The notes beneath the pieces are model-generated. The model ran no database searches, was not told the origin of the DNA, and saw only the letters and a program-made list of their open reading frames with translations. Below are positions 1 through 34,200 of a stretch of 64,000 nucleotides of DNA, piece by piece; the stretch's first letter is position 1, and each line of letters begins with the position of its first letter. The position numbers and the translations under genes are program-made. The DNA is from Balanoglossus misakiensis (Eukaryota; Animalia; Hemichordata): NCBI GenBank assembly GCA_040954595.2, contig CM082589.2, positions 6,507,186 to 6,571,185 on the forward strand, written 5' to 3'.

Positions 1-1075
1 CAAGGGTTTTTTTAAACATTTTGTTACATGTGCACGAACTGCAAGCTTGCTTGACGCCTCACATCATAATGACCAACTTTCCAGTCTGTAGGTCACGACG
101 GGGTAACACAACTCACGAAACGACCGTAGTGTGATTGAATTGTTTTATTCAGCGGGCTTCATGTACATGGACGGAAAGCCAATATAACCCTGCTTAACAT
201 AACCAGAAGTCACATACAACCAGAGGGCTCTAGACCGCCAACATCTTGTTAAACAGGGCCAAAAAACATATGTCAAAAACTTATCCTACATTGGACATCA
301 TCTATAACCGCTAAGCCACTGTTAAGAGTCAACTTGCATGCATGGCATGTTTTCTACCAACCTAACAGCCTTGTCGTGCATTGTTGCACAAGCAGCTTTC
401 AGCAGTATACATTTCATGACATTTACATATAATATGCTAAGCGGTGACACAAATTGAAAATGTAATAAGCTGAAGTTATAAATCGCGCCCCCATTGTCTG
501 TAGTACAACTTTTTTCTTTTTTAATAATTTCACGTCAAGGCATATAAAATATATATTTTTCAGTCTATATCACTTTCTCATCGATATGCTACACCAGTAC
601 CTGAAAGTCTACATATTCCAAACAATACTGTTTCCAATATAATTTTATAACACTGCGAATAATAGTTCTCCTGCTCTGGTGTTTTAAGTGCCTTCATTTA
701 TGTGTATGACTGGTGCTATGGAACATATACTTGCATGGGTCCCTCAGTCATTTCTGTGCTGCTTTGCAAGTGCCTATAAGCAGCATTTGTTTCAACAAAC
801 ACACTCACACAAACACACACACACACATATTTAATACATGTACAGTTCTGCATTTAAAGGATGATTTATTTTGACATTGGAAAATTTAATTAACTACGGT
901 GTACGAAATAGTTGAAATAAAGGAATTTAACCAGGAATGCTTTAAAGTGCGACAGTATTCACTACACCGTATGCCCACATATTTCGAAACATATCATTTC
1001 ATAGAGATTTCTTTGTTGCCTACTAAAGACTGTATGTTCTTCTTCAACAGCAATAGTGGACCTAACTTCATTCAT

Positions 1076-3887
1076 CTACGAAATGGCTGTGTATTATAAA
1101 AAAAGAAATAATGGTTAAAGAATAAGATTGGGAAAACATATCTACATACTGTTTACACACGTATAAACTAAGTCTTGTATTTGACATGCCTTATTTTAAG
1201 CAATGTGCATACTGTATACCAGTATACATGTATTATAAGCATTGTGCGCACATATTATATAATGATCTGTGCTATGCATGAATCAAATAAGACACGTATG
1301 TCGCACCTGGTTTTTCACAGATGTACCAAGAATCAGGCAGAGGGCCCCAATCAAGAGGACGGTCATTCCATTTAAAGTTAGAATAGTCGCTGCTTCTCAA
1401 CTCGATTTCCCCAGACTTCTCAACCTCACCATTGTTGGGCTCGCCAGGTTGCCATGGCATGAAGCTTTCGTCGACAGCTGTTCCATCTGACCATTTGTAG
1501 CCTTCACCAGGCTATTGAAAATAAATCAAAGAATATCAGAAATGGGGCGAAGAAAAATAGAGATCTAGGTTTTAAAGTAGAATCATCAAAATAATCTTTA
1601 ATACCTTAGATAGTTGTTGTATCCTGTGTAAACAGATTCTCCACTAAATTATGATACTAACCCTATATATCAGTCCAATGAATAGATTGCATTTGTAGTT
1701 AGGATCACAACCACTTATGTCCAGCTGGGCCACTTCTGAAGAAAGCCAGCTGTGTACATCCTGTGTATCTTTTGCCAGGTGACCTCCTTGGCTTTGACAG
1801 TAATTTTCAGCGTTTGTCCAGGTCAGCTTGTTTGTACCAAAGTAATAACAGGTAGTACAAAACAGCTTCCATCCTTGCGGACATGTGAAGGCTTTAAAAA
1901 TAAAAGCATGTGATACTTTAATTAGAGTGGTCAAAACGTTCAAAATTTGGCTGAAAGGGAAATCAGCCTATCTACAGAAGATTTTTAAGGATTTTTTTCA
2001 AAAGGCTGCAAGTTTGTGTTTTGCAGGGAATCGCTCAAACATTCAACAACAAATCACAACCAAAGAACCCGATTATACCAACTGAAGTGTAAATCATTGC
2101 TTTTTAACTGCTATATGAATGATAAGAGATAGGGGAAAGATACCACACCTTGTCTTTCACAGATGTACCGGGCGTCGGGCTGAGGTCCCCAATCAAGAGG
2201 GCGGTCGTTCCATTTAAAGTCAGAGTAGTCACTACTTCTGTATTCCAGTTCAGCAGACTTTGCAACATCGCCATTGTTGGGCTCGCCAGGTTGCCATGGC
2301 ATAAAGCTCTCATCCACAGTTGATCCATCTGACCATTTGTAGCCCACACCAGGCTATGCAAAAAAAAAACGTACAAAATCATGAACGGGACAAAGAAAAA
2401 TAAAAACCATAAACAATAACAGATATTCATTTGTAACTATAAGGAGCTTACTTAAATGGCAAATTCAAATCTCAATGTATTTCTGCACAATATCATTACT
2501 ACCGATTTAACCGATTCTTTTGGAGGAAACATTTACCCACAGACATTATTGAAATTCCACAGCCGTTACACCTCTATAGGTGTATGGTTTAATGCTTGGG
2601 TCATACATTATTAAAACTAACCCTATAGATCAACCCAATCACAGGGTTGCATTTGTATAATGGATCACAGCCACTTGTATCAAGTTGTGCAACCTCAGCA
2701 GACAGAAAACCGTGTACATCTTGCGTGTCTTTGGCCAAGTGTCCAAACACACCCTGGCAATAATCTTCTGCTTCGTTCCATGTCAACAAGTTCATGCCAA
2801 AGTAGTAGCAAGAAGATCCAAAAACCTTCCACCCGTCATCACAAATATAAGCTATAACAAAACACAATTTGTTAATTATTAAGAAAGATACCAGCAAGGT
2901 TGTTGGTACAGATGTATGATTTAAGTATAAACACAAGTGGTGAATTGTTAAAGCATGAAAGCAATGTTGTCGGTACAGATGTAATTATTTAAGCATTGAA
3001 CTATGACACACCTGCAATGTGCACACATAACGATTATATACTGGTATACCCGGTATATGATCTGTACCATGAACAAATATATCGCACCTGGTTTTTCACA
3101 GATGTACCAAGAATCAGGCAGAGGGCCCCAATCGAGAGGACGGTCATTCCATTTAAAGTCAGAATAGTCACTGCTTCTCAACTCGATTTCCGCAGACTTT
3201 GCCACATCACCATTGTTTGGCTCACCAGGTTGCCATGGCATGAAGCTTTCGTCAACAGCTGTTCCATCTGACCATTTGTAGCCTTCACCAGGCTATTGAA
3301 AATAAATCAAAGAATATCAGAAATGGGGAAAAGAAAAAATACAGACGATCTAAGTTTTAAAGTAGAATCATCAAAATAATGCAAAATATATCTTTAATAC
3401 TTTTAGATAGTTGTTGTATTCTGTGTACACAGATTCTCCACTAAATTATGATACTGACCCTATATATCAGTCCAATGAATAGATTGCATTTGTAGTTAGG
3501 ATCACAACCACTTATGTCCAGCTGGGCCACTTCTGAAGAAAGCCAGCTGTGTACATCCTGTGTGTCTTTTGCCAGGTGTCCTCCTTGGCTTTGACAATAA
3601 TTTTCAGCATTTGTCCAGGTCAGCTTGTTTGTACCAAAGTAATAGCATTTACTGCCAAACCCTTTCCAGCCGGTTTGACACTGTGCTATTTGGCCAAAGA
3701 AAAAATGTTTAATGTAAACATGCTAGTACATTTTTGTGATATATTTACACAGGAAAGAGTGTTTGTTAAGTATGGTGTACATTTTCACTGACCTAAAAAA
3801 TTGATTCATAACATGTTTTTTTTTACCTCTTACAGTTACTGTCCAGGTGATGGATAAAATCACAATGAGGAGACTTCCAACAGTCAT
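1076..3887 (-). CDS. Secreted C-type lectin, gene A: signal peptide + 3 tandem CTLDs (EPN/WND type)
   Basis: Phase-compatible GT-AG exons: 3887-3827 (MTVGSLLIVILSITWTVTVR signal peptide), 3685-3459 and 3292-3088 (CTLD1), 2851-2622 and 2353-2149 (CTLD2), 1891-1662 and 1511-1307 (CTLD3), 1086-1076 (AIS*). Motifs C..GW..F...CY.F, W..A..YC...GGHLA, (F/V)IGL, W.DG, WQPGEPNN, WND, YICE. Confidence 0.9.
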
Positions 3888-4394
3888 GTTTGAGTCGGTT
3901 CACCTACATAAACAGAAACTTTTAAAAATGGAAAAACATTGTATTATTTGACATCTGATAGCATAATGTTTGCTCCTGTATGTGATGATAACAACTAAAA
4001 ATTAAAAACAGTATATATATAACCATCTTGCACCAGGGTAAATAAAGGGACAACACAACCTAATTGTGACATCGTTCTGATTATTTTCAGTTTCTTCTGA
4101 TACATTTTTTATTTAATTCAGGTGCAAGAGTAGTACTGCAAAATTAGCACAATGTTTGAAGTGGAGCATTTAGGGATTGCATTCGATAAACTGGATAACA
4201 ATACAGGAAGCCAACAACACCCAATGAAACTTGAACCAGCAGAACCAATTCAAGTGGAAACCAAGTCGGTACACAAAACGACTCTGCCAGTGTTCAAACT
4301 ATCCAACAGTCAGGTTGCTATCATGCACTGTTGGCTAGAACATATACTACAATGTAGACCATATCAGAAATGCACAATAACATACACCACTCAC

Positions 4395-4500
4395 CTACTC
4401 TTGCTTCTGTTGTCTTGTGCAACAGTTGTGACAATATTGCCGACTTATATTGCTACAGCTTTGTAAAAATAGAGACAAAAAACATAGGAGCTACGTCACA
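4395..4500 (-). promoter_or_regulatory. Probable promoter and non-coding first exon of lectin gene A (paralogous copy at about 8474-8580)
   Basis: Strong minus-strand donor AG|GTGAGT at 4395/4394. ATATAAG TATA-like box at 4450-4444, about 50 nt upstream of the donor. TGACGT CRE-like site near 4493-4498. All three are conserved in the gene B copy. Confidence 0.5.
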
Positions 4501-6058
4501 ACAACAAGGAGAGACACTATAAATTTTATTTGAACTGTTTGAACTTTCTATTTTACAGTCAGTGGTAATAATTTATGTTCTGTTTGCAAGACTGTTTTAG
4601 CGATCGAGAGTAAGAATATGCTGGTACATGTAAACTGACAAAACGCACCTAAACTTAAAAATGTTCTTCTCTGGGTCCCATATTGTACCAATAAGACAGT
4701 ACCCTACAAACACAAGCATCTAATCAAATATGACTCCCTTTATAGTACCTTGTAGAAGTATTTGTTTGGTGACAATTGTTCCTGCAGTATAAATTTATTC
4801 CCATACACAAGAACTCGACGTAACAAAGTCTTTATAGTAAGAACAGTTTTAAATATTTGAAATATACCAGTAAATCTGGTCATACAGAAGATACAACCAC
4901 ATCTTAATTTTCTCTGCAATTTAATTCAAATGTTGAACACTACCTGAGATACCAATGACACAGGAAAGTTATGCTTGACCAGTATACACTTTGCAAAATT
5001 CAGGAATTGTAAAAGTCTGTCATGGCATAAATTCCCTTCCTGTGTTAAGTTTGAGCGAGGTCAGCCAGGGTAAGCATGGTCTGGATCAAACAGCATAACT
5101 GATGTATTGCTTTGGAGGTACTGCTGGTAGGGGTACTTTCATGTTACAGCATCTGAAATAGCTAGTGGTCGTATGATTGACAGACCTAGTTTTTGTATGC
5201 AGTCGAACCAATCCATCAACAACTTAGAAACATCCATCTCTAACACATTTTTCTTCTTGTTGATAACCAAAGTCTGGCAGACTTGCCCGGCTTTAGTTCT
5301 TTCTAAACTCTCTTGTGTATTTGCCTGCCTGCTATATTATGCTTTATCTGTTTCAGACAGACAAGCCTGTGTCTGTAGCATTGCCTGCTTGTCTGTCTGC
5401 AACGGGTTTGATGGGGACTCGCATTAAAAACTATAGGTCTGCCGATCGTTCGATCACTAGCTATTTTAAAAGCTCTGAAGTGCCTGTACCACTACCAGCA
5501 TATTTTTCGTCAAAAGGGATACATTAGTTATGCTGTTTTCTGACAGAAAACAATATTTTGCCCGTCTTCCCTGGAGTCTCGTACAAAATGTAACATTTAA
5601 GTCCAACATCCTTCAAAAAATTCAAACAATACTGTTTCCAATACATTTTTTATAACACTGCAAATAATAGTTCTCCTGCTCCGGTGTTTTAAGTGCCTTC
5701 ATTTGTGTGTATGACTGGTGCTATGGAACGTATACTCAGTCATTTCTGTGCTACTTTGCAAGTGTTTCAACAAACAAACTCACACACACACATATTTAAT
5801 ACATGTACAGTTCTGCATTTAAAGGATGATTTATTTTGACACTGAAAAATTTAATTAACTACAGTGTACGAAATAGTTGAAATAAAGGAATTTAACAAGG
5901 AATTCTTTAAAGTGTGACAGTATTCACTACACCTTATGCCCATGCATATTTTGAATATCATTTCATAGAGATTTCTTTGTTGCATGCTAATACACTGTAT
6001 GTTTGACAAGGTTCTTCTTCAACAGCAATGGTGGGCGTCGAATTCTAACTTCATTCAT

Positions 6059-8022
6059 CTAATGGACGACTGTGTATTATAAAAAAAGAAACAATGGTTG
6101 AGGAATGCATATCACACATGTATATATATTTTACACGCCTTATTGTGCATAAACATAAGCAATGTTCACACACATGGATTATATATGAGTGTACCATGCA
6201 CAAATCATAAAAGACATATCGCACCTGATGTTTCACAGATGTACCAAGTATCCGGCGTTGACCAATCAAGAGGACGGTCATTCCATTTAAAGTCAGAATA
6301 GTCACTGCTTCTCAACTCAATTTCCCCAGACTTCTCGACCTCACCATTGTTGGGCTCACCAGGTTGCCATGGCATGAAGCTTTCGTCAACAGCTGTTCCA
6401 TCTGACCATTTGTAGCCTTCACCAGGCTATTGAAAATAAATCAAAGAATATCAGAAATGGGGCGAAGAAAAGTACAGACGATCTAAGTTTTAAAGTAGAA
6501 TCATCAAAATAATGCAAAATATATCTTTAAGACTCTTACATAGTTGCTGTATTCTGTGTAAAACAGATTCTCCACTAAATTATGATACTGACCCTATATA
6601 TCAGTCCAATGAATAGATTGCATTTGTAGATAGGATCACAACCACTTATGTCCAGCTGGGCCACTTCTGAAGACAGCCAGCTGTGTACATCCTCTGTGTC
6701 TTTTGCCAGGTGTCCTCCTTGGCTTTGACAATAACTTTCAGCATTTGTCCAGGTCAGCTTGTTTGTACCAAAGTAGTAGCATTTACTGCCAAACCCCTTC
6801 CATCCGGTATGACACTGTGCTATTTTGTCAAAGAAAAAATGTTCAATGTAAACATGCTAGTAGCTGTGAAAAAAATTCTTGAATTGAGATATTACTTCAA
6901 TGCCATATGCAATATCAACACATTCTGAAGTATCACTCGATTGTGAACTTTAACAAAAACAACCTAGTGTGTTTAAGTAACACAACACAAGTGGTGAATT
7001 GTTAAAGCATCTGTAGCAATGTTTTTTGTGTCGATGAATTCTTTAAGCTAACATTGACCCATTCAAGTGGTGAATTGTAAAACCATAATGGCGATGTTGG
7101 TACAGATGTATTATTTAAGCATTGAACTATGACACACCTGCAATGTGCACACACATGGATTATATACGAGTGTACCATGCACAAATCATAGAAGACATAT
7201 CACACCTGGTTTTTCACAGATGTACCAAGTATCAGGCGTTGACCAATCAAGAGGACGGTCATTCCATTTAAAGTCGGAATAGTCACTGCTTCTCAACTCA
7301 ATTTCCCCAGACTTCTCGACCTCACCATTGTTGGGCTCACCAGGTTGCCATGGCATGAAGCTTTCGTCGACAGCTGCTCCATCTGACCATTTGTAGCCTT
7401 CACCAGGCTATTGAAAATAAATCAAAGAATATCAGAAATGGGGCAAAGAAAAAATACAGACAATACAAGTTTTAAAGTAGAATCATCAAAATAATGCAAA
7501 ATATATCTTTAAGACTCTTAGATAGTTGCTGTATTCTCCACTAAGTTATGATACTGACCCTATATATCAGTCCAATGAATAGATTGCATTTGTAGTTAGG
7601 ATCACAACCACTTATGTCCAGCTGGGCCACTTCTGAAGAAAGCCAGCTGTGTACATCCTGTGTGTCTTTTGCCAGGTGACCTCCTTGGCTTTGACAATAA
7701 CTTTCAGCATTTGTCCAGGTCAGCTTGTTTGTACCAAAGTAATAGCATTTAGTGCCAAACCCTTTCCATCCGGTTTCACAATGTGCTATTTTGCCAAAGA
7801 ATAAAATGTTCAATGTAAACATGCTAGTAGCTGTGATATCAACACATTCTGAAGTATCACTCGATTGTGAACTATAACAAAAACAAACTAGTGTGTTGTA
7901 CAGTAATCGTTACCAACAACAGCAAGTATGGTGCATATTGATTCATTTCAACGTTTTTTACCTCTCACAGTTACTGTCCAGGTGATGGATAAAATCACAA
8001 TGAGGAGACTTCCAACAGTCAT
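6059..8022 (-). CDS. Secreted C-type lectin, gene B: signal peptide + 2 tandem CTLDs (paralog of gene A)
   Basis: Exons 8022-7962 (same signal peptide as gene A), 7785-7559 and 7407-7206 (CTLD1), 6819-6593 and 6426-6225 (CTLD2), 6069-6059 (VVH*). All splice phases are consistent and the CTLD motifs match gene A. Confidence 0.9.
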
Positions 8023-8632
8023 GTTTGTATCGGATCACCTACATAAACAGAAACTTTTAAAAATGGAAAAAAAATGTATTATTTGACATCTGACAGCAAA
8101 ATGTTTGCTCATGTATGTGATCATATCAATCAATTGTTCAGTGGCACCCGATGGCTGTTCACACACCATAGACTTTTTCAAACAAGTCTTCAGTTTTCTC
8201 TTAAAAGAGTCTAGACTGGGTGCTAGTCAAAAGTCATCAGGCAGTGAGTTCCAGAGAAAATACTGTAGTTGTGCTGAATCAACGGTAATCAAACTTGAAC
8301 CAGTAGAACCAATTCATGTGGAAACCAAGTCTGTACACGAAACAACTCTGTCAGTGTTCAAACTATCGAACAGTCGAGTTGCTATAACCATGCACTGTTG
8401 GCTAGAACATACTTCTGTTGACGATGTCGATGTAGACCATACCAGAAATACACAATAACAATTAGACCACTCACCTCTTCTTGCTTCTGTTTAACTGTGC
8501 AACAATTGTGGCAATGTTGCAGACTTATATTGCTACAGCTTTGTAAAAATAGAAATAAAACTTAGCAGCCACGTCACAATAAACATTTACGAAATTTTAT
8601 TTGAACTGTTTGAACTTTCTAATTTAATTGGA

Positions 8633-14700: not shown

Positions 14701-17700
14701 ATGTATTGTGCAACTCATTCTGCCGTATTTGATCATTTTTCAGGGATTCAACTTTCCAGAAGAAGCAGGCTTTCCTTTGGGTAACAACAACAACAACACA
14801 GAATCTCCACAATTTGTCGTTATGGAAACAGCCTTTCACCATGGCTATAACTCAAGTAAGGTGATTTTTTTTTTCAAATAGTTATAAAGGGTTGTGAAAG
14901 TTGTTTATTAGAAAAGAATTGAAATGCAGACAATTAAGCTGTATTAATTATTAACTGTTGGGTAGGAAATCTGCAGTTACAGTACCTAAATGATTAACTG
15001 ATGAATTGACTGGCTTGCCTATAGAATAAACAAGTGAAAATATCAAAAATACAAAGAAAAAAAATGACTGCATAAATGGCATTTTTCAGGAGTATGTTTT
15101 AATAACTGGTAAACATCATTCAGAATTGATGCAGCTCCCCCATTTGATCAGAATATATGGGATTGTCGAGTTGCTGTGAGGGCGCTGCTTTTTTGACTGG
15201 AAGTGTGGTCAGTTTTTTGCTACGCATGGCAATAATCAATAGGCGATAACATGCCAAATTTGTACAGTTATACAACCAGTTGTGATACAGTGGTGCAGCA
15301 ATTGATGTAATCGTTTAAAATGCATGAGAAACAAAACAAACATGGGTTTTGCACTGATCTGACAAGTCAGATCCCGTGAGGAGTACGGTGCCCAGAGTGC
15401 AAACACCTAAGGTTTTTTTGGTCTCTTTTTGCATACAAATTAACTATACAGGACAGTCACAGAAACAGCATTCATGATGCGTGAATACAAAATCACCAAT
15501 CAGTGTTCTCCCCAGGAGAGACAAGCTGAATGAAAAACATTTAAATGTAACAAGACAACAGCATCAGACCACTGGCCTTTAACTGGAGATTTTACTCCAT
15601 TACATATCAGTGCAATCATCATCACTGCCACCACCACAAAAACCACCAACACCACCCCTTTGCCATATAAAACAATAGATACCTTAGATTAAAGACAAAT
15701 CATGACCCCTTGCTATATGTTGATACAGTGTACTGTATATCATGGCATAAAATGTCCTAAAGCGGTGGGATGGGGAGGGGTCAGGTTTTACAACGTCGAA
15801 CAAGGGGGAGGGTCACATTATAGAAGGGAGGATATGGGGGAGGGTCACATTTTAGAGTCCAGGTGTATGCTTGATTTAATCACCCTGGCCCACCCCCCTG
15901 TAAATACTGAAGGGTCCCTAACAAGGATGAGTTCCAAAACCCGAGGTATAGCACTGATCCGAATGATCAGATCCCGTGAGGAGTACGGTGCCCAGAGTGC
16001 AAACACCTCTATTTTTATTTCTATACGAGCCAGAAATTCTCATTTGACAAAATTAAACTTTTCGGGGTTTTTTACATTTTTGATGCATTCAGATGGGCAG
16101 TTGAATTCATATATGTTGTTACATCCAACCCAAACCCTTGTCAATTAGCAGAACCTGTCTCTACATATATCAGAAAACCTATCCACACGCGAATTACTTA
16201 TTCGAATACATGTATAAGGAACCCCCCCCCCGAAATAATATCGTCCCGACCCTGAAAAAAGTACCCAGTGCGTTATTGCAGTCTGGTGTGTGAGGGCGCT
16301 GTCAACATATTGTATTTATGTGTACTATGAACACGCCCTAAAATTTGCCTCACCATTTTCTACAAATGTTTGAAGTTGTTCTCATTGAAAGTCACACTGC
16401 CATATCACAAACTGATCGTTCCGTAGTATCTAAATCATCCACCGTGGTTGATATCTTGTAACTCCCCCCCCCCCTGGAAACCCTACCATTCCTCAACTAT
16501 CCCGTAGAAACGACTGAAATTTTCGAGGCCAAGTCAGAAATGACAGTACATTGAGTGTCTGTCAACTCGAATCCGGAATCAAATTTCCTGCCCTCGCCTA
16601 GCTGCAATAATTGTAGCCTTGGTGGGTTGGGTGATCGCTGTCGGCCCCACAGCGATCACCCAACCCACCAAGGCTACAATTATTGCAGCTAGCCCTCGCC
16701 CTGTGATCAACTCGTTTCCCCCATGGGAGAACCAATACTGGAAAATTACCGGACACGGATGATTATGGAGAAACGCCATTCATTTTACATGTAAATTAGA
16801 TTGTAAGCGCAGAGACCTGACCGGACATTGACTGAATAAATTGAACCCTGAACAGTTCTCAAAAACACAGTAAAATGGATGAGAAACAAGACCCTCGGGT
16901 GGTTTTGCGCTGATCTGAAATTATCACTCAGATCCCGTGAGGAGTACGGTGCCCAGAGTGCTAAAACCACCTAGAGATCCCATCTCTACCACCAATTTGT
17001 GACGGAAGCACTACACGGTCAGGGACCGAACGAACGTTCAACGGGCCTCTCACACACAACACGTGCCATCTCTCGGCAGTAGAACCACTGAAAGCAAGCG
17101 TCCCTGACGAAACTCTGGCCAATTCGGACACGCTAGGGTAAACAGCACTTCTGACCCTAAGATCAGTAGGCCTGGAGTTGGCTACCCAGTAGTCAAGAAG
17201 CAAGAAATGAGGCAAAATATCGGCGCCGAGTTTTGGCCACCCTCTCCGAACGACGCCATCCAAAATCTAAACTAATCACGTGACCCAGACCGCACTTCCG
17301 ATTGGTGTTCGACAGGCTATGATGTCACCCACCAGTAACATGATGGAAATTTCCCCCACCTGTATCTTCTGGGACACACAGGTCATCCTTAGCAACGACC
17401 GCCATAGCAACACAACACTCATAAGTGAGGAAGCCATATATGATACATAAACACCTTTCCTACAGGATAAGAAGTGAATAACACTAAGCACTTCTATAAC
17501 AATATATTAGACTTTATCTATTATCCCATTAGATTATGGTCTGAGGCTCATTGATTCTCTTGACAATCATGGACCATGTTCATCAATGTTCAATCAATTT
17601 TGTTTCGTCACAGCCATGGTAGACTCGTCGGGAATACGTATCTTCTACACCTCGGATTTGCGGGAAAACGACGCTGGTGTACTGGTCACAGGACATGAAA

Positions 17701-20138
17701 CCAACGACGCATTGGTGGTACCACCCGGAGCCACAAGTTTTGTTGCAAAAGGATACTGTTCCAAAGCATGCACTGATTACGTGAGTACACAAGGACCAGC
17801 TTAGCGTGTTTATCAGTTATTATTTGATTATTAAAAAGTAAATATTATTATAATATGGTGGCTTCGTCAACAGGGCCTTTACAACCAGTCTATCAACGTG
17901 TTTGCGTCTCTTCTGGATGGTAATGAGGCCGCAACAACGATGCGCACACGCCATGTGCGCGATGGAAGAGAACTGAAACTCATCGCCGAGAACGTGGATT
18001 ACAATTATAACTTCAAAGGTCTGAAACACCTCAAGGTAGTTGCCTTGGTCAAACCGGTACGTAAAATTGTGTACAAACGCACACATATTTGCCATTTTCC
18101 ATGTGTTGCTTGCACTTATTAGTAATTTCTTACCCAGAATGATGATGCTATTTGAACCTGATTTGATGTCATATTCTCACATAGGCCTACCTGGCGTCAA
18201 AAAAAAACTGTCTTCATTTTTTGGTTTCGATTATTTCCAACATCCTGCAAGGTAAACAGCGGCGCGCGTGCTTTGTTTAATATGCGCTAGCCTAAGACTT
18301 TGTCGTTGCAATGAAGGATTGTTTGAATAATCTACATTTGTGGTCAGATTACTGTTGAAATACAGAACCTTTAAATTCACGAGCACCGAGAAGGTATGCC
18401 TTTGATTGACGGTTAGTCCCATTCTGTCTTTTTTTTGTATCATTTCGGTACATGTACTTGAAGGGAGACGAATTCATCACAGAGTGTACGTATAACACTG
18501 GAAAGAATACACAAGTCAAGTACGTAAGTAGTAAGAAAATCGCCACTTGCTGGCAATTGAACAATGGTGTGATATGGAACCAAAAATTCAATCGCAAGTG
18601 TCTAATAACAGAGCTTAGTGCAAGCATTCGGTGATAAGATAACTACTCAACAATTCACCATGCCTAAGGAGGTCGAACAAGCAACATACAAACAGAGGAA
18701 AATAAAATACCTAAGAATGGCCAACCGACATAACTAATGGTATATCATTCCATACTACCCTGTTCAACATTTAGGGTGGACGTGGCATACAAAACGAAGC
18801 ATGTATCAACTATTTATATTACTACCCTCGGAGTCGACTGATGCGGTGTCAGAGTACTATTGATTGGCGCTTTGGCATGTATGCCGTAGCAAAGATCACG
18901 AAAATGGATAACTCGTAAGTAATAGGCCATTTCCATGACCTCTTTATGATCTTACTCAACGGTGTAGCTCCGGTGGTATGGTGGGGTTTTCAAAATTCAA
19001 CATTTTATAAATGTGTATTATTGCTTGAAAAAGATTCACCTTGCTTGGTAATTCAGTATGTAATTCATTGAATACAGCTGCATTGTGTAGAGTTTTTGCA
19101 TGTAGAATGTTTTAATCAGACTGATGGATTTACGCCAACGGAAGTACGAGGATGGACGGTCATGTGGGGTCATGGAAGTGATCTATTGTTTCCATGCATT
19201 TCTCCTAAAGAGCAAACAAATTTCCTCTCCGACCAAAAAAGCCAACAAGCGTGCGATGTACGGTAGCCCAATCCATTTACTGGGTGATAGCTCGCGAATG
19301 ACAGAATAATGTTGTTTAGTTAAGAAATCCCTTTATTCTGCTTTCCGTGTGCATATTTCCAATACATGTGTACCCCTGAAGAGTTTCAACTTTAATTCTG
19401 TGGTTACAGGTGGCCGAAAATCATATTAGAGCCAACAAATCACGCGGGAAAATCCATGTTTGAAGTTTTTAATGGATTGGAGTGGAACCCCGGGGAGATA
19501 GATAGTTTGGAATACGTGTACTCCACTTACTTTGTAAATAAGTGCGACCGACACGGGGGACCACGCCCGGTAAGTTTCAATAAGAAAACCCTGATATAGT
19601 TATATTTTGTAATAAGCCATGTTAGTATATATTCGGATTAGATGACAGCAATACCTTCCCGGTAGAATACATTGTGATGAAAACAGAAGTTTGGTCAAAA
19701 ATACAAAATATTTTCCTCTGCGAGAATATGCGGCTATATCTCTCACAATTCAAAGCCGACGATCGTCTTGTGCCCATGTGCGTTATTTCGTGTGTATAGA
19801 CATTACGTCCAATCAAAATGTTCTGTAAATTTTGCGTTCAACGCATTCAAATAGTGGTCATGCGCACCGTATGAGTAGATTTCAGTTTTGTCCCTTCTTT
19901 TTTTACCCAGTTTTCTGTCTTTTCCCGATCTTCGGCACGGGGTTTATTTGAAGATGTTAGGTGACACGTTGTTTTCCTCCGTTTGCAGGAGTTTGGACCC
20001 TTTTCCTTTGTGCCTGAAATAAGGCAGCCGTTCATTGGTGAGGACCCTTGCGCAGCATGCGCAACAATGTGTGTGGGCCTGTGGAAGATGTCTGCGATGG
20101 TTCTGTTCGTTTTTCACCTACTGAACCGGTGCTGTTGA
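11722..20138 (+). CDS. DBH-like monooxygenase (MOXD1/DBH family fold): signal peptide, DOMON, two Cu-type-II monooxygenase domains, hydrophobic C-terminus; copper ligands absent
   Basis: 12 phase-compatible exons: 11722-12090, 12371-12517, 13290-13484, 13852-13938, 14338-14529, 14744-14855, 17614-17780, 17874-18056, 18464-18523, 18775-18914, 19410-19569, 19989-20138 (653 aa). Family motifs GYIGLGFSPTGRMINADIVFGWV, FSRKLRTCD, IIWAYH, KHHVVKYEP, FPEEAGFPLG, DSSGIRIFYT..LRENDAG, RTRHVRDGREL, GDEFITECTYNT, YYPR. Confidence 0.92.
15345..15407. repeat. Structured three-way-junction motif, copy A
   Basis: GGTTTTGCACT-GATCTGA(caag)TCAGATC-CCGT(gaggagt)ACGG-TGCCCAG-AGTGCAAACACC. The core is identical in copies B and C. 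Confidence 0.85.
15765..15920. mobile_element. Fragment of a G-rich MITE-like element abutting motif copy B
   Basis: Three GGGGAGGG(G)TCA subterminal repeats, ending in CCCCCCTGTAAATACTGAAGGGTCCCTAA, which looks like a DNA-transposon terminus. The other end is not visible. Confidence 0.4.
15943..16009. repeat. Structured three-way-junction motif, copy B
   Basis: GAGGTATAGCACT-GATCCGA(atga)TCAGATC-CCGT(gaggagt)ACGG-TGCCCAG-AGTGCAAACACCTC. Lies exactly 600 bp after copy A. Confidence 0.85.
16599..16691. mobile_element. 93-bp foldback MITE with perfect 43-bp TIRs (TAG...CTA) and a 9-bp TSD
   Basis: TAGCTGCAATAATTGTAGCCTTGGTGGGTTGGGTGATCGCTGT, 7-nt loop CGGCCCC, then the exact reverse complement. 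Flanked by GCCCTCGCC at 16590-16598 and 16692-16700. Confidence 0.9.
16898..16971. repeat. Structured three-way-junction motif, copy C
   Basis: GGTGGTTTTGCGCT-GATCTGA(aattatcac)TCAGATC-CCGT(gaggagt)ACGG-TGCCCAG-AGTGCTAAAACCACC. Confidence 0.85.
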
Positions 20139-20574: not shown

Positions 20575-23500
20575 TTAAGTTTGCGTTTCGACGTCATTTA
20601 CATATACATGTATGATATCCTGTTGGTGTTTCGCTTCCATGATTGTGGCCGCGTCAGCCTTTTCCACCCTTCTTGATGATATTCGACGTTGTCTGGAAGT
20701 CCAGTACTCCATTACCAACATCACAATGCCGCCCAGTGATACGAAACACCCGTAGAAATAGAAAGAGTTGTTGTAATCCCCGGTGACATCATATATGTAA
20801 CCTGCAAAATTCCAAATATTACTCAAGTTATAAATCTAATATCCAGGCGTTTTGTTTGAAATCATTTCAATGTGATTTCATCTTTTTCGTTTAGATACCA
20901 ACAAAGTGTTATGTTTAGTGTGTATGTTAGAGCAATAAACGAACTACGAAAACATTAAATCAAATGACTGACCATTATCCCTACTCAAAGGTCCAGCAAC
21001 GAGCTCCAATTATATGATTCTTTTCTCATTCTCAGATTTATTGTTTTGGGTATCAACTGTTATTTCTCGTTGTACTCTTCAAAACATAAAGAATTGCTCT
21101 GGATTTTAATACAACCGTTTTGTAGTAATCAGCACTCTCTGTCTGTCTCTGTCTCTCTGTGTGTCTCTCTCGCGCTCTCTCTCCCTCCCTCCCTCCCTCC
21201 CCCCCCCTCTCTCTCTCTCTCCCTCTCTCTCTCGTATATAAACAAATAACGACAAGGGATCTTATTTAGAGCAAAATCAACGTCACCTGCACAGAGTGGT
21301 CCTAGAAATCCTCCCACCGCTAATACACAAACGCAAAAACCAAATCCCGCCACGAAAAGTCGATGAGATAATGTGTCCTTGATAACAACCCCAAATAAGG
21401 TATACATCAGTCCACTCAGTAAACCGATGATGGATGAATATACAGCAAACACTGTGTACGTGTTTACTACTTGCACGAGAAGAAGCAAGACTCCTCCGAG
21501 AAGCATGACAAGGCCGTACCAAAACCCGCTTGTTCGATGTTGCCATCGACAGCACGGTTCGAGGGATGGTAGTAGTCTGCCAACGATGCTGCCTATCCCA
21601 AGCAACGAATTGGCGAACGCAATCTCCTCGGGGCTTCCCAGATGCAAGTCTTTCGCACGCGCTACCAGGTGCACTGTCACGCCGACGTATCCCACGCCAA
21701 GACATAGAAACGACGACGCGACAAACACGATGAACGCTGGGTACTTGAATAACACGTGGCAGTCGCACATTCGCAAAAAGCTCTCAAGCCTCCCATTGCC
21801 TTTGACACTCTCCTCTCTCTCTTCTTCATCTGACACGCCCGTCGGCCTGAACAAGGCGGCAGAAATGCCCATGTGCGCGTTGATAGCAGCGAAGACCATC
21901 GCCGTTCCTCTCCATCCGTACATGTCGATGCATCCTTGTAGGATAGGCGGGAAAATGAAAATCGCAACTCCGCCGCTCATCACAGTAAGGGCGTTCGCGA
22001 TCGCGAAACGTTTCTTTATGAACAAAGCAAAATATCCCACGCCCGGCGGCAGAATTATACCATATCCAAGTCCTTGTAAAACAAAACAAAAACAGCAAAA
22101 GTCCATTCAGAATACACATATTACATATATTCTGGTACCAGCGCTTTAGCTACAAGCGCTGGGTCGGCTAGTCACAGTAGGCCTAAGTACACTTCAACAT
22201 GAGTAAATACAAGAAATGACCCTTTAACCCACAGTGTGCAGAAATATGCAGTGCTTTGTACGTATATATTTACCAAAGGGGTCGAAGATCGCAGACAGTC
22301 GATTTCATTCAGGCTGTCAGACCCAGTCAGCCAATACTTGTTTATATCAAAGCAAGGTCACTTGTGTGGAGTGACCGTGATCAAAGTGACCTGGAAAAGA
22401 GGTTCCAAAATAACGACGGGCGGACGGGCCACAGTAAGGTCTTCATTGAAGTACATAGACAGTACTTACCAACAAGAACTCCAAGGCTAAAATACAAATA
22501 CTCGATACTTGTTGCAAAATAACTCAAAAGGTATCCAGTAGTAGAAATGGCTGTTCCAATCATGACCGTCATCCTAGCTCCGATCATTTTAACACACACA
22601 TTTGATAACGGACCTGTGCACAGAAATTTGTAAAATAAACTCAAGTAGTAATGATTCAGTTTATTATTTTAATAAAATAGAAATTAACACTTGGAAATTA
22701 TATCTCTTGGCAGGGGCAATTGGGCAGCATTTGCACTACGTATTTTCGTAGACAGACGCAACGATATATCTTGATGGAGGAAGAGCTTACATATATTACA
22801 GCGCCAAATATAATCGCATAACAAACCCGACACTGGTATTTAGAGCGGGCAGCTGCAGTTGGTAGTTTAATGGTCACTTGATCCGCTTTGAAGCGTTCTA
22901 ATTCATAGTGGGACAATGTCCCTTTATGTTCCATGTACGTAATTGTAGTGCCCTAGTTTCATTCTACGACACAGCAGTGCGGAACCACGACCTTCGCTTT
23001 GGAATGCAATGTGATATGGGGATATCATTAAAGGGAGTAAGTCTCTCTCTCTCGTTGCCCTTTTTTCCATTAATTATATTTGATACGAGACACCGTTTGT
23101 TATTCTACATGTGGATATATAGTGAATGAACGTTCAACCACACACAACTTCCATCCCTCTTATAGACAGGAGAGTGAAAAAACTCGCCAAAATGAATAAT
23201 CGTTCTTTACCATTTATTCATTTTGGGCGTGTTTTTACTCTCATATCATGCAAGTGGGATGGAAGTTTTGGGTGGTTGATCATTGATTCACTATATATCC
23301 ACATTTACATTAACATAACCAGTGTCTTGTATCAAACATAATTAATGGAAAAGGGGCAGCTGGAGAGAGACTTTGTCCCTTTAACCCTATGGGTATGGCG
23401 AGAGTGTCCGGCTTTGGCTTTACGCGGCCTCACTGGGTATGGTGACCAGGCTACCCTGCTCGCGGCGCATACCAAAGACTGGGCACTCTCGACATACTAG

Positions 23501-25246: not shown

Positions 25247-28200
25247 ATGGAGGTTGAAGGTAGGAATTATTTTGAATTTTTTGCTATATTATGCGATCCC
25301 TGTCGATGTGATACCGCTGAACAGTTTTGAACATCGCTTTATAATAGGCTGTTGAACTGTACAAATGGTCTTGCTTTCAACGATCGGAATGCCGTAGCAC
25401 GGAGCTTTTTTCACCGACCACATATATACCGTATACGCGATGACAAAGTCCGAGGGGTGATTCATTTCCGAATCCGACACATTTGACAGCTTCTGTTGCG
25501 TCATCGTCAACATGGTTTATAAATATTGTCTGGAATAGATCGTTGTAACACTGGCGTGGAAGAAATTGCAGCCGTTTGTCCGTCGATCACGAGCGCACAC
25601 TGAAGTTTCACTGCCGCCAGTGCAGTGGTATGGCCTGCAGGGGTCATGGGGTCAAGAAAAGGACGCTTTCCCAGGTTGTCCTAGTTACGTCGGAGACCAA
25701 TCGGCCCTATTATTATTAATACTCACGGCCGTACCCGTGGCCCTACTACAGTCTTATCAGTCCTAACTTTACTATTCTGTGACATATGTGTCCAAAGTAT
25801 GTACAATCCAGCTGTCAAAATCACAATAAACAACAAACACTGCGCATGAAATAGACAGCGACTGCCACTCCCATACCATCTGAAATCCACATGAACCCAG
25901 TGTTTATACCCATACCCTACATAGTTTTTGTAGCTATGATATAAATTAAAATACCTTCTTCATATCCCTGGACATAAAATGTGCACCTCAGCACTCTATA
26001 ACCTGACAGTGACACAAAAGTTGTCATTAATTCCACATCATGCATTCACAAAACAACATGATCGTAAATCACAGATTCATCACATATATGATTTTTCTTT
26101 GATCATTATAAATCACCAGTTGACCAAAGAGCGTTGCCAAAGAAAAAGAAGAAAAAGGGAAAGGCTACAGCCAAGGAAAATGATGATGAAATTGGTTTAT
26201 GTAAGCACCAAGTATATACTCATATTCAACTTCAAAGTATGATTTAAAGGCACATGAGCTGCAACTGGATAAAAAAACTTAAAGTTTTAAATAATCTCAT
26301 ATATGCTTTTAATTATGTCTATCAAATGATATTTCATGATAATATATCAAGCTCAACACTTATTTATGACAAAATTGTCAAAAATTAAAGAAAAACGAAA
26401 ATTCAGGACTGCAATTTTTAAAAAAGTGCAATTACCTGAAGTCATGGTTTACTTTCAGCGCCTGATTCAGAAAACACAAAAGCTAAATTAGAAGAACTAT
26501 TGAAGGCAGCGGTTGATCAGTCTAAAAGGTAAGACAGTTTATTTTTAAAAGTGTCAGTGTTTTTGATTTGGTGGTATGTACTATAGCCTGGTGATTATTG
26601 CCACTAGTCTATAATTGTATGATATGGGACAAAGTATAGAAGAAATTATTTTTTGAAAGATGACATTTTGACAATGGTGTTAAAGGGTTTAACTTCACTG
26701 TCATGTGAGCTATATTTCCTGTGGAAGAGGTATATTTTCAGGTCATACTGAAGAACTGTGCATGTACCTGTGCAAATACACACTGCTGCACTGAAATACA
26801 TTGTACACATCCTGGATATTTTGACATTTTAATACCAGGACAAACACAGCTACATAACAACTACCACATGTAGTTTATACAATGGAATGTAGTCTCTGTC
26901 CTAGAGCCATCTCTGTTTACTCTGCATTTTTTTAAACTTCAGTGATGGAAAGAAGAAGAAAACAAAAAAGAAAACACAGGAAGAGTTGCTGGTAAGTTCA
27001 CTAATCTCTTTGAAATCAGTTCAACCAGGCAGAGTGCCCTCTAAGCCCATGTGATGCGTTACTGACTCAACAAACTCACTGATGACTCAAGAAAGTTACC
27101 CACACTACATGCAAGGGTATAGGACTGACTCAGAGAAATTTGTAGAAATCCTCAAATTGACTCAAAGCTTTTAAAAATTATGTTCGTTAGAGGGCACACT
27201 TTCCTCTTCTTTGTTTGGTGCAGGTCCCATTGTCTTCAGTGGGCAAGCTGGACCTGTACACTGAAGCAAAGCAAACTTAATTTACTTTGGGGATTCAAAA
27301 CAACCATATCTTGTATCCTGTTACAGCTGCAAACTATCAAATCAGGAAAATCGATCAAAAAGGACACAGAGGACACGTCCATGGCTGCTAATACTTACAA
27401 CGAAGATGAATCACCACGGACGAGAAAGAACACCAAAAACAAGAAAAAGTCGCATGCCAAGGAAATGGGCGTGGAAAACGATGGCTACATTGAAGAAACA
27501 GCTCTGGACAGTCAATTAGACACACCAAAGAAATCTACGAAGAAGAAAACAAAGAAGAAGACAGTGCTTTCTGATGATGGGTAAGAAATGATAGGGGCTG
27601 ACTCTTTCTCAGTTTCTGTGAAGTATCTTGAAAACACTGTACATGTATATCAGTGGGTGCTTTTACATAATTACATGGTGTACAGATCATTCCATTTGCT
27701 TGAGGATGCTACCTTATTAAAGGCAAAACATGTTTATTTATCCCTTTCACCGCCGTGGTATGGTCCAAATCCATTGTTTTCTATGGTAAAGATGGACCTC
27801 TTAATAGGGAACTGGGGGTGAAAGGGTTAAGGATTATGGGCAATGCATATACTTCACCAAACAATCCTCACATGTGTTACCATCTCAACAGTGTGGTTCC
27901 AGGATGCACTGAATTCCATGCTGTTTGTGACATGTGAACCTTTATATATACCATTCCCCACAACTTCCGGTAAGGGTTTTAACTAATTCAAATTTCATTC
28001 CAGAGGCGAGATGACAATATCAGAGCTCGAAGACACCCCTAGAAAGAAGACCAAGAAGAAGAAACCCAAAGCGGGCTCACCAACTCCGGACGATGACAAG
28101 ACCGGAGATGAAATAGAAAGAATCAAGTCGGCGGATGAAGCCACTAAAACAGAAGACGATGGTGAACGGACGGATGCAGCGGGCACTCCGAGGAAAGTGA

Positions 28201-31200: not shown

Positions 31201-34200
31201 TTGTGATTTAAACAAAAAGTGTTTTCCCTTCCTCTGATGAGGGAGCCCCTGATAAAATCTACACACGAGCAAGATCAAATTTGGTCTTATTTCACCAACA
31301 AAACGATAACAGCTGCGTCTTGAAGAAATTGTAAAAATTGATCAAGTCGGCCACTCTGCTAATGGCTCGTCAGTTGCTGCTACTTACACTCATAGTAGCC
31401 ATGGCAACCAAGTCAGGCGCTCGTAATCTCCTGGTGTCATCAGAACTCGTTGATCAGATCTCGTGTTTGTGGAAAGTTCGTTTGGAAGGGCAGACGATAA
31501 CACAGGATGGCCATCGTCATTGGCTGAGTGGGTGGTTGATTTTTTTTATTTTTGCCATTTTGGCAGAAAAAAATAAAAGGAACTACTATGCCATTCTAAT
31601 TTCCAGAGAGCTACACTATGTTTTTTAGATATTCAGCTTAAATGCTGTCAACAGTCAGACAATGTTACGTTTACTAGTAATATAAATAAAAAATATTTTC
31701 ACTTAACCTGATTTGACTTTTTTGAAAAAGCAAACTAAAATCTATATGAATCACGGTAAAATCACAAATTCTGTTCTCTGATGCATTGCCTTATATCTTC
31801 ACATGATCTTGCTTAAAGGGGAAATCCGTCGTAGCTGATTTCTACATAATTTGGTAGCTTTGATGTCACTCTTTCAGAAAAAAACATATTCGCCATGTAT
31901 AGGTCGCGCGATTTTTTACAAAATCTAGGGAAAGTTCCAATATGGCGTTTACTGTAATTTGAATCATGGGAAAAAAAGCGCCAGGACCAACTTCCGCCCA
32001 CCATGGTGTGGGTGATACCATTCTCCGATAGGTGTCACTGGGCGACAGACTAGGCGTATTTTCATAGCTATTGTTTGTTCTTTGCATCAGTTGATAAACA
32101 ATCATCAGCAAAGTCGAAAATTTGTCATCTATTGACAGTTTTCATGAGCTATAACCCATGGTAAATATGCAAATACGCTTAGCTTGTGACGCAGTGACAC
32201 CAATCGGAAAATGGTATCACCCACACTAAGGTGGGCGGAAGTTGGTCCTGGCGCTTTTTTTCCCATGATTCAAATTACAGTAAACGCCATATTGGAAATT
32301 CTGCCAACTTTCCCTAGATTTTGTAAAAAATCGCGCGACCTATACATGGCGAATATGTTTTTTTCTGAAAGAGTGACATCAAAGCTACCAAATTATGTAG
32401 AAATCAGCTACGACGGATTTCCCCTTTAACTGATAACAAAATTATTATCATGTTTGTAGTAATTTTCAATAGCTGCTTGTTTTTCCTATACTGTGCTTGC
32501 CCAATCTCTTATCTGAGTCAAATTTCACTTGCCTCTTTCCCATGAGCAGCCATACATGTTAATGTGGACAGTGTGTGTAGGGGTGTAAATTTCAGTATGA
32601 ATATTTTCCTAGTGGCTGTATAGGGAATTTTATTTTTTTTCAATTTGCAACCGATTGCCTCTAGCAGAATATTTTACCTGCGTCATTCCCTGAGCTGATA
32701 AACAGAAATCAGAGGAGAGTGAAATTGGGGTTGCAACACAAGCAATCAGTTCTGTGTGTTGAAATGAATTTGTGTTTTTTTTCCCCGTAAAAAGTGCAGG
32801 TCAGGTCGTTTCAGTCAAGTCATGCCAACTGAATACTTATTGGGGAAAAAGCTAGGAAAAGTGTCAAAAAAATAAATATATATGAGAACAATAAAGCTTT
32901 GGTTAATCATAATAAAATGACAATCCTTACCAGAGGATTGAACTAGTGACCTGCCCTACTTGTTGGGTTTTGTAACTTGTTATACATATTATTTTATTTG
33001 TAGTCATGTAATTTATTTTGCAAGTGGAATGTCGAATTTTAATGTCTAGATTACCGGTAATTTGAAAAAAATTCATGTGAAACACCAGCTGTGTTTATCA
33101 TGGCCTGATAATCATTGACTCATCAACGATCGCAAGTGTACACTCCCACCTTAATGCCTTAGTTAAGATGTAGCCATCGCTATATTAGTAATCCAATGAG
33201 AGCGAGGAATTACTGATGACGTTTTTAAGGAGGGACTGTTGATGATGAAACTAAAATCAATGACTGCACCTGATGACAAGCCTAGCCAGACATGATGTTT
33301 TATTCATGTCTGGCTGTTGTGTGATGACTGTGTGACCCCAAAAAGGGAAGGGGCCCTCGCAGTGACTGCTCAGTCGGCAGATGGACAGTCGTGTCGGGAA
33401 TGAGCTCTGGATTATAACATGCGTTAAAGTGTGCCGCACCTACCAGGCCATAAATGTGACGTTCTATAGCTGAGAGCTCGCGATAGAAAAAACATCGTCC
33501 AATATGGATTATCACCGACTGACGTTTGTGGAAGATGACTTTGATGTATGTATAAGTTTATCAAACCCCGTGTTTCGGTGAAAAATATGTGTTACCTTTT
33601 CGTTTTCTGAGAGATGTGGTTTCGACAGTGTCTGTTAAAGTAGAACATCTCTCGCAGGTTGAATACTAAACCTGAAGCCAGACCAGTTCTTGTGTGTAGG
33701 AGAAAGTACCGGCACTACATGTCTCAGAGGAATGCTGCACTTTGAGTAGGGGATTACCCAGAGCTGATGTGTGGTCAGCACATTCCTAGCTTTGTGCATG
33801 TGGAATTTTACGCAAAATGCCATTGTGGTACATGTACATGTATTGCCATTTTTCTTGAAATTTCCACAGAAGGTGCCAAAAGAGTGTAGCAACACCTGCT
33901 TTTCTATTTATTTATTTTTGTTTTTTGATAATCCAACAACATACATTATTATAAGTAAAACTCAGGAAAATAATATTTTTAATTTTCAGCAGTACATCGC
34001 CTTTTAAAGACAGTTTTATCGGAAAAGGGATATTCAAATGTACTGTACTGGCATTTCAAATCGAGCTATTTTGAGTCTGGAATAAGATAAAGTCTTCTGA
34101 TAATAATTCTTTTCACCATTTTTTTAAAACTGTTCTAAGAATCCCAGCGTTTTGTTTTTAAAAAAAAATAGGTTTACCAAGAACAGAGGATGTTCTTTAT

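What the first reader, a model, noticed from the sequence alone, without database searches (positions are those of the whole stretch)
15329..16975. Unclassified three-way-junction structured motif repeated three times in direct orientation within one intron
Seen: three copies (15345-15407, 15943-16009, 16898-16971) share a 34-nt invariant core TCAGATCCCGTGAGGAGTACGGTGCCCAGAGTGC, while the DNA between them looks unrelated. Each copy folds the same way: outer stem P1 (GC[A/G]CT/AGTGC plus an extension), hairpin P2 (GATCTGA/TCAGATC), hairpin P3 (CCGT/ACGG with invariant loop GAGGAGT) and an invariant single-stranded joiner TGCCCAG. Variation falls where pairing tolerates it. The P2 loop is CAAG, ATGA or AATTATCAC, and the outer P1 extension differs per copy yet stays largely complementary (GG../..CC, GAGGT../..ACCTC, GGTGGTTTT../..AAAACCACC). 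Copies A and C share an upstream TAAAATG[C/G]ATGAGAAACAA, and all three have AACAA 12-25 nt upstream. Established: the motif lacks the hammerhead CUGAUGA/GAAA core and does not resemble HDV, twister or pistol consensus. Tandem structured motifs 0.2-1 kb apart are the architecture of retrozymes, and hairpin-rich ends finishing in CTTGTT occur in Helentron/Helitron2-type rolling-circle elements. Inference: a functional ssRNA or ssDNA structure, either a candidate new self-cleaving RNA or a cleavage/recombination origin shared by otherwise unrelated non-autonomous elements. B-to-C (about 1.05 kb) may be one unit bounded by direct structured repeats.
Basis: partly seen in the sequence, partly recalled or inferred. 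Interest (0 to 1): 0.85.

Follow-up and report, generated by a model that had tools for sequence, protein, structure and literature searches.

The report
Hammerhead-shaped repeat end, acorn worm
Three copies of a roughly 100-base repeat lie in one intron of a likely acorn-worm gene and share an identical 34-base core; the family probably has several hundred genomic copies, is predicted to fold like a hammerhead ribozyme without its catalytic letters, and likely marks the RNA end of small retroelements, which makes it a cheap candidate to test for a new self-cutting RNA.

Summary
Real, but unclassified. Contigs of one sample show a high-copy family (roughly 300-1,300 copies; bounds 50-2,600) in which a 30-nt core is near-invariant and the flanks split into many small subfamilies. 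The fold is predicted on both strands, but the 16 inner pairs show no two-sided change in the three copies. On the minus strand the layout is that of a type I hammerhead (stem, 7-nt CUG...A joiner, 4-bp stem, variable stem, AUC/GUC, then a 35-nt tail), yet the catalytic core fails (CUGGGCA, no GAAA) and Rfam finds nothing. Best reading (0.40): 3'-end RNA signal of non-coding, Penelope-like or LINE-dependent retroelements. Main rival (0.27): head of Helentron-type rolling-circle elements. No partner ORF, target-site duplication or prokaryotic/viral relative was found. Earlier scan notes hold no look-alike sequence. Self-cleavage is untested (about 0.12).

The parts
15316..15408 (.). copy A: 35-nt terminal segment (left on +; tail on -), outer stem, three-way junction
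   Evidence: a multi-copy contig begins at 15317, marking the left boundary (X1 record 2)
15368..15397 (.). 30-nt family-wide invariant core (one arm of P2, hairpin P3 with 7-nt loop, 7-nt joiner, two bases of P1)
   Evidence: summed contig depth 70,000-88,000 (X1) and 190,000-340,000 (X2) here, about 20-fold lower 6 nt outside; no variant at 1% or more listed inside
15412..15434 (.). imperfect inverted repeat of copy A's terminal segment, extending the outer stem to about 120 nt
   Evidence: fold z -4.0 (+) and -3.3 (-) for 15316-15436; outer part alone p 0.03-0.06; not seen for B or C (p 0.3-0.8)
15919..16008 (.). copy B; core at 15967-16000; folds much better on the minus strand
   Evidence: RNA z -3.2 (-) against -1.5 (+)
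16871..16971 (.). copy C; core at 16928-16961; 9-bp outer extension
   Evidence: RNA z -4.2 (+), -3.7 (-); arm pairing p about 0.01
17272..17410 (.). second, lower-copy repeat block that follows the motif here and at one or two other loci; holds promoter-like words (E-box, ETS, CCAAT, CRE-like, two RFX-like half sites)
   Evidence: depth and joints 15406>17272/17274 and 15433>17273; word positions (the word labels are recalled)
14856..17613 (+). host intron (2,758 nt, GT..AG, phase 1) of a DOMON + copper type II monooxygenase (DBH/MOXD1-like) gene
   Evidence: Pfam hits on flanking exons; splice sites read

Best explanation
The motif is the conserved end of a high-copy repeat family and likely acts as a folded RNA signal, read on the minus strand, at the 3' end of small non-coding retroelements that would be copied by a Penelope-like (or LINE) reverse transcriptase. 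Shown: three copies in direct orientation, a sharp shared boundary 35 nt beyond the stem, a near-invariant 30-nt core within many small subfamilies, unrelated DNA on the other side. Predicted: the three-way fold. Inferred: a transcript runs through family-specific sequence into the structure; the structure sits where canonical Penelope-like elements and retrozymes carry their hammerhead, and either cuts the RNA by a non-hammerhead core or is simply bound by the reverse transcriptase; truncated copies then land in partial tandems, leaving the motif plus a 30-40-nt tail and different upstream remnants.
For: Minus-strand order is stem I (5 bp), 7-nt joiner CUGGGCA, stem II (4 bp), stem III with a loop of variable length, AUC, stem I' in 3 of 3 copies; of 187 relaxed three-way-junction matches in the window only these 3 have a CUG...A joiner (a post-hoc test, about 1 in 256 per match). 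A P2 variant seen in loose ends or differences of all three runs turns AUC into GUC and gives a G.U pair on - but a C.A mismatch on +; copy B's own change does the same. Family structure (invariant core, many subfamilies, single motifs and close pairs) matches what PMC4209133 describes for Penelope-like ribozyme motifs (passages). Naiad Penelope-like elements occur in two other acorn worms, lack canonical hammerheads, form partial tandems and carry a 30-40-bp tail (PMC8557442 passages); their published consensus ends show conserved structured motifs with variable but complementary stems (supplement; read by eye). Clustering is far beyond random placement (expected triples genome-wide 0.012 or fewer for 60-2,000 copies in an assumed 0.5-1.2 Gb). 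Nearest named homologues of a window protein are Ptychodera flava, 2 of 2 hits, 47% identity.
Against: The hammerhead core fails: A6 and G8 are changed (no C3-G8 pair), GAAA is reduced to GA, stem II closes C-G (numbering recalled, C3-G8 and G10.1-C11.1 named). No Rfam match. Likeness to the Naiad 5' motif is not significant (best edit distance 7 on +, reached by 243 of 1,882 window tiles; 6 on -, 57 of 1,882), and no core 9- to 13-mer hit a Naiad, Chlamys or Hydra terminus in that supplement (exact words, line breaks can hide hits). No RT or GIY-YIG remnant in 170 window ORFs. No target-site duplication, no (TA)n target. Two P1 changes favour the plus strand instead (copy C; X1 record 2). Inner stems show no two-sided change. 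Spacers are not tandem repeats as in retrozymes, and a preprint reports retrozymes excluded from introns in Xenopus (abstract and methods).
Confidence: 0.4

Rival explanations
1. The motif is the left end (plus strand) of non-autonomous Helentron/Helitron2-type rolling-circle elements: the terminal segment pairs with a downstream inverted repeat, the branched tip is bound and nicked as single-stranded DNA by an HUH Rep, and the 17272 block is the other conserved module.
For: All three units start with T at a sharp boundary. Copy A's terminus pairs with a downstream repeat, and loose ends of other genomic copies hold short complements of the A/C-type and B-type termini and a T-run behind the stem. 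A second conserved block follows at variable distance at 2-3 loci, as in HINEs (PMC7492417 passages). No duplication at the boundary fits. The P3 loop plus two bases matches NANTANTAC at 8 of 9 positions, 3 of them wild cards (consensus recalled). Two unreviewed scan notes report self-nesting Helentrons in this genome.
Against: No inverted copy of any terminal 14-mer in the window at 2 mismatches or fewer; one 12-mer at 16776 is at chance level (7 such hits in 64 kb). T|T flank in 1 of 3. In described elements the terminal repeats are the conserved part and lie 1-22 bp from their internal complement; here the termini vary, the inner core is fixed and the gap is about 80 nt. Terminal pairing is absent in B and C. 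Sequence look-ups do not link this motif to the reported nests. No RepHel ORF in the window.
Confidence: 0.27
2. An ordinary short foldback or MITE-like DNA element of about 100-120 bp: arms stay complementary through template switching in palindromes, the core is a protein-binding site, and the fold has no RNA role.
For: No two-sided change in the inner stems; strand evidence is mixed; the window is rich in palindromic repeats; imperfect terminal complements in A and in loose ends.
Against: B and C lack terminal inverted repeats; no duplication; termini vary while the interior is fixed, the reverse of MITEs (general knowledge); same-strand clustering and the linked 17272 block are unexplained.
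Confidence: 0.15
3. A dispersed, clustered family of small non-coding RNA genes (plus strand), with an upstream element about 29 nt before a G start, paired ends and a T-run terminator, in the manner of Y, stem-bulge or vault RNA genes.
For: Fixed spacing of the terminal segment to the stem; T-runs behind A, B and several genomic copies; unrelated spacers and an invariant body are typical of RNA gene arrays (general knowledge).
Against: No T-run behind C or behind several loose ends; no A/B boxes or Rfam/ARAGORN match; hundreds of copies in many subfamilies are more like a mobile family.
Confidence: 0.1
4. The core is a site for a tyrosine recombinase (two 11-12-bp arms around a 7-bp spacer), and the arrays are cassettes exchanged at these sites.
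For: A 30-34-bp invariant site in direct orientation between unrelated DNA; A shares its left side with C and its right side with B.
Against: Arms match in only 5 of 11 positions (read); flanks pair within each copy, which free exchange would break; no recombinase ORF; no joint that skips from one copy to another in the contigs (absence in contigs is weak).
Confidence: 0.05

Closest known systems
Type I hammerhead ribozymes of Penelope-like elements (PMC4209133, PMC6155905; passages read)
   Same: Three helices in the same order on the minus strand, 7-nt joiner beginning CUG and ending A, NUH triplet before stem I', short stem I, high heterogeneity around a fixed core, single motifs and close neighbours.
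   Different: Core CUGGGCA instead of CUGANGA, no GAAA, no C3-G8 pair, long stable stem III, invariant stem II and loop; no linked RT ORF seen.
Naiad (N-terminal endonuclease) Penelope-like elements of acorn worms and molluscs (PMC8557442; passages and supplement look-ups)
   Same: Same host group; no canonical hammerhead; direct partial tandems; 30-40-bp tail; published consensus termini carry conserved structured motifs with variable complementary stems (my reading of the supplement).
   Different: Sequence of our core does not match those motifs above chance; no ORF, no (TA)n target.
Non-LTR retrozymes of animals (PMC7229834 passages; bioRxiv 10.64898/2026.07.22.740005, part 1 of 5)
   Same: Non-coding, structured motif repeated in direct orientation a few hundred bases apart.
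   Different: Units here are not repeats of one another, spacing is 600 and 961 nt, and the motif is not a hammerhead.
Helitron2 / Helentron non-autonomous elements, HINE and DINE-1 (PMC3627910, PMC4067079, PMC7492417, PMC11417382; passages)
   Same: T start, terminal hairpin by a downstream complement (copy A), T-run, no duplication, two conserved modules with variable middle.
   Different: No matching subterminal inverted repeat found, T|T flank in 1 of 3, conserved part is the inside of the hairpin rather than the terminal repeat.

Membership tests
Type I hammerhead ribozyme | three helices in the order I, II, III with helix I open | tested here: met
   minus strand, 3 of 3 copies
Type I hammerhead ribozyme | core CUGANGA with C3-G8 pair | tested here: not met
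   CUGGGCA in 3 of 3
Type I hammerhead ribozyme | GAAA between helices II and III | tested here: not met
   GAUC follows helix II directly
Type I hammerhead ribozyme | NUH triplet before helix I 3' strand | tested here: met
   AUC in 3 of 3; GUC in a family variant; predicted paired, not flipped out
Type I hammerhead ribozyme | match to Rfam hammerhead models | tested here: not met
   no hit at E up to 5 or 10
Type I hammerhead ribozyme | self-cleavage | not testable with these tools
   needs an assay
HDV-like, twister, pistol ribozymes | family core words and pseudoknots | tested here: not met
   no Rfam hit; loose recalled patterns gave 0 hits on the cores, only scattered hits elsewhere in the intron; no partner for loop or joiner at a fixed offset in all three copies except the stem's own flank
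Non-LTR retrozyme | tandem units of like sequence, 150-450 bp, each with a hammerhead | tested here: not met
   spacers unalignable; spacing 600 and 961
Non-LTR retrozyme | circular RNA | not testable with these tools
   only DNA contigs were on hand
Penelope-like element (Naiad type) | RT and GIY-YIG ORF next to the terminal repeat | tested here: not met
   0 of 170 window ORFs; genome not held
Penelope-like element (Naiad type) | direct partial tandems with a 30-40-bp tail | tested here: inconclusive
   direct orientation and a 35-nt shared segment in 3 of 3, but no element body to place them on
Penelope-like element (Naiad type) | sequence likeness to published Naiad termini; (TA)n target | tested here: not met
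Helitron2 / Helentron (HLE2) | 5' T and terminal hairpin through a downstream complement | tested here: inconclusive
   T in 3 of 3; hairpin in A only
Helitron2 / Helentron (HLE2) | 11-17-nt asymmetric inverted repeat at the far end, followed by a stem-loop | tested here: not met
   0 hits for terminal 14-mers at 2 mismatches or fewer; far end may be deleted
Helitron2 / Helentron (HLE2) | insertion between T and T, no duplication | tested here: inconclusive
   T|T in 1 of 3; no duplication; no empty site seen
Helitron2 / Helentron (HLE2) | autonomous RepHel partner sharing the terminus | not testable with these tools
   none in the window; genome not held

The most novel reading that the evidence does not exclude
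A new self-cleaving RNA: hammerhead architecture with a different, invariant core (CUGGGCA joiner, no GAAA, fixed 7-nt loop on stem II), cutting after AUC/GUC, present in several hundred copies and doing for a hammerhead-less Penelope-like family of acorn worms what hammerheads do for canonical ones.
Probability: 0.12. Interest if true: 0.85.

Novelty: new variant of a known kind. Interest (0 to 1): 0.5.

Why it matters
Naiad-type Penelope-like elements dominate many invertebrate genomes yet lack the hammerhead of their relatives, and what replaces it is open (PMC8557442). A fixed 30-nt core in hundreds of copies, with hammerhead geometry and a predicted cut site, turns that question into a one-day assay. 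If it cuts, it is a new small ribozyme or a far variant of the hammerhead; if it does not, it is still an undescribed terminal signal of an abundant acorn-worm mobile family, which is of modest interest.

Tried and rejected
Whole genome: not held, so no genome-wide alignment. Sequencing runs: 3 listed, one sample, DNA contigs only; no RNA holder listed. These runs may be the sample behind the window and are not independent support. Exact core in viral contigs: 0; shorter form: 1 hit with no flanking structure. Metagenomes, 22-nt core: 0. Degenerate loop-and-joiner pattern: 7 metagenome, 13 viral, 15 prokaryote hits; 2 of 35 pair all four P3 positions, and by eye none has P1 and P2: chance. Rfam: 0 at gathering score in 64 kb; E-value scans gave only microRNA models on the 95-bp palindrome and E 4.9-9.7 noise. 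ARAGORN: 0. Literature: six core words in full text gave 2 unrelated papers; topic searches listed no description of this motif; subscription papers, Repbase and Dfam were not searchable. Naiad 5'-motif homology looked persuasive by eye but failed the test. Telomerase CR4/5, C/D snoRNA, SL RNA, tRNA-like and xrRNA readings were considered from recall and dropped: no template, boxes, donor or loop partner. A strict 10-bp kB pattern did not match in the 17272 block. In-place purifying selection: alternative-allele contigs suggest A and C are on both haplotypes, but 0 changes in 102 core bases against roughly 2 expected is not significant (my arithmetic on selected rows). Replitron and Paramecium Helitron passages gave no matching terminus. 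The supplement of PMC8557442 was searched as wrapped text by exact words, and bioRxiv supplements were not seen; either could hide a match.

Full report
Observation. The 34-nt core lies at 15367, 15967 and 16928 on the plus strand with no mismatch; 100 shuffles gave no match at up to three mismatches. A covariance model of the three finds no fourth copy in 64 kb. The spacers do not align with one another. The copies sit in a 2,758-nt intron (14856-17613) of a DOMON plus copper-monooxygenase gene. The only two homologues of a window protein at E 1e-10 are from Ptychodera flava at 47% identity, in line with unreviewed scan notes that call this genome an acorn worm.

Fold. The three-way junction is the minimum-energy RNA fold on both strands of all three copies (z -1.5 to -4.2) and of 4 of 6 as DNA. 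Folding alone cannot choose strand or molecule. In the 16 inner pairs there is no two-sided change among the three copies, one one-sided change and one broken cell of 48. The outer extension pairs better than shuffled arms in A and C (p about 0.003-0.02) but mostly not in B (p 0.12-0.70), and A's right arm pairs with all three left arms, so it is not copy-specific covariation.

Family. No genome is held. Contigs of three runs of one sample were laid on the intron and on copy A (two runs). Summed depth over 15374-15391 is about 88,000 (X1) and 340,000 (X2), against 40-55 and 130-220 on single-copy contigs. The tool warns that summed depth is no copy number; dividing by an overcount of 1 to 31 overlapping contigs gives 50 to 2,600 copies, and 300 to 1,300 for the plausible overcount of 2 to 5. 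Depth falls about 20-fold within 6 nt outside 15368-15397, partly because 31-letter contigs end there, partly because flanks differ. No variant at 1% or more is listed inside that stretch; the nearest is 15398 T>C (15-22% of depth there), which would pair with copy C's P1 variant, though the two cannot be phased. Flank-specific contigs have depths of only a few copies each: many small subfamilies around one core. One multi-copy contig begins at 15317, confirming the left boundary. A few paralogues follow copy A's right flank for 30 to 140 nt. Three joints link the motif to the repeat that starts at 17272, so motif and block lie together at one or two other loci besides this one. With a few hundred to 2,000 copies in an assumed 0.5-1.2 Gb, a same-strand triple within 1.7 kb is expected 0.012 times or less: the copies cluster.

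What it resembles. Rfam gives nothing; prokaryotic, viral and metagenomic collections give only chance hits; ten literature searches list no description. On the minus strand each copy reads: 5-bp stem, CUGGGCA, 4-bp stem with ACUCCUC loop, 7-bp stem with variable loop, AUC, closing strand, then about 35 shared bases. That is the register of a type I hammerhead; only these 3 of 187 relaxed junction matches in the window have a CUG...A joiner. A recurrent family variant makes the triplet GUC and a G.U pair on this strand, and copy B folds far better on it. But A6 and G8 differ, GAAA is missing and the triplet is predicted paired, so this is not a hammerhead and hammerhead chemistry should not be assumed. 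Two P1 changes favour the plus strand; one is explicable as CpG decay (inference).

Best reading (0.40). The motif is the 3'-terminal RNA signal of non-coding retroelements. Passages of PMC8557442 say that Naiad Penelope-like elements occur in Saccoglossus and Ptychodera, lack canonical hammerheads, are heavily truncated, form partial tandems and carry a 30-40-bp tail; PMC4209133 describes Penelope-like ribozyme motifs as heterogeneous families, mostly single, some 100-700 bp apart (those on opposite strands). Our cluster fits that pattern. In the supplement Naiad termini carry their own conserved structured motifs, but our core does not match the 5' one above chance and none of our core words hits a terminus. 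No RT remnant (0 of 170 ORFs), duplication or (TA)n target was found, and a preprint reports retrozymes excluded from Xenopus introns. So it works like such an end by inference; membership is not shown.

Rivals. A Helentron/Helitron2 head (0.27) explains the T start, the long hairpin of copy A, T-runs and the second block, and two unreviewed notes report self-nesting Helentrons in this genome; against it, no far-end inverted repeat, T|T in 1 of 3, no terminal hairpin in B and C, and no sequence link to those notes (definitions). A plain foldback element (0.15), a small-RNA gene family (0.10) and a recombinase site (0.05) are set out in their sections.

Verdict. A real, abundant, apparently undescribed structured repeat end. 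Its function is not shown; only three copies were read whole, from one sample, with no RNA data. The hammerhead-like register gives a precise and cheap test. Interest 0.5; new variant of a known kind; a new self-cleaving RNA about 0.12.

Papers seen: passages only of PMC3627910, PMC4067079, PMC10288648, PMC13085455, PMC6155905, PMC7492417, PMC7229834, PMC4209133, PMC11417382; passages, four word searches of the supplement and its part 26 for PMC8557442; part 1 of 5 of bioRxiv 10.64898/2026.07.22.740005; search listings for the rest. Hammerhead numbering, transcription-factor words and the nonanucleotide consensus are recalled.

Noticed in passing
window 17871-18056 (host gene exon): The host DBH/MOXD1-like gene has DGN where dopamine beta-hydroxylase has the copper-binding HTH (E 0.067 for this short exon); it may be a non-catalytic paralogue.
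   Followed up: partly
window 16598-16692: Near-perfect 95-bp palindrome, high-copy with sharp ends at 16599 and 16691: a MITE-like element; its microRNA-model hits are far below gathering score.
   Followed up: partly
window 15740-15918: Another multi-copy G-rich element that ends directly at copy B's left boundary.
   Followed up: no
window 16972-17270: GC-rich, single-copy, structured stretch between copy C and the 17272 block, with a 9-bp inverted repeat enclosing several hairpins; no Rfam or tRNA match.
   Followed up: partly
window 15336-15350, 15937-15947, 16890-16900: By eye, the left arm of the outer stem can instead pair with bases just upstream to make a small hairpin in each copy, an alternative to the outer extension; not tested.
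   Followed up: no
supplement of PMC8557442 (Naiad consensus termini): Mollusc and acorn-worm Naiads share a conserved 5' motif (an 11-nt and a 9-nt block inside variable complementary stems) and a conserved branched motif in the 3' UTR; the passages read do not describe them. They are themselves candidates for the missing RNA signal.
   Followed up: partly
window 619-8129: Tandem C-type lectin exons on the minus strand, 70-92% alike.
   Followed up: no
window 23024-23384, 57042-57330, 31813-32429: Long palindromic elements; the first two are related.
   Followed up: no
window 27736-27834, 36125-36227, 48267-48366, 56000-56095: A dispersed 90-bp repeat family in both orientations.
   Followed up: no
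window 61576-62355 (+) and 63061-63867 (-): Two single-exon ORFs that look related, the second with a thioesterase-like Pfam match and homologues only in Ptychodera at E 1e-10.
   Followed up: partly
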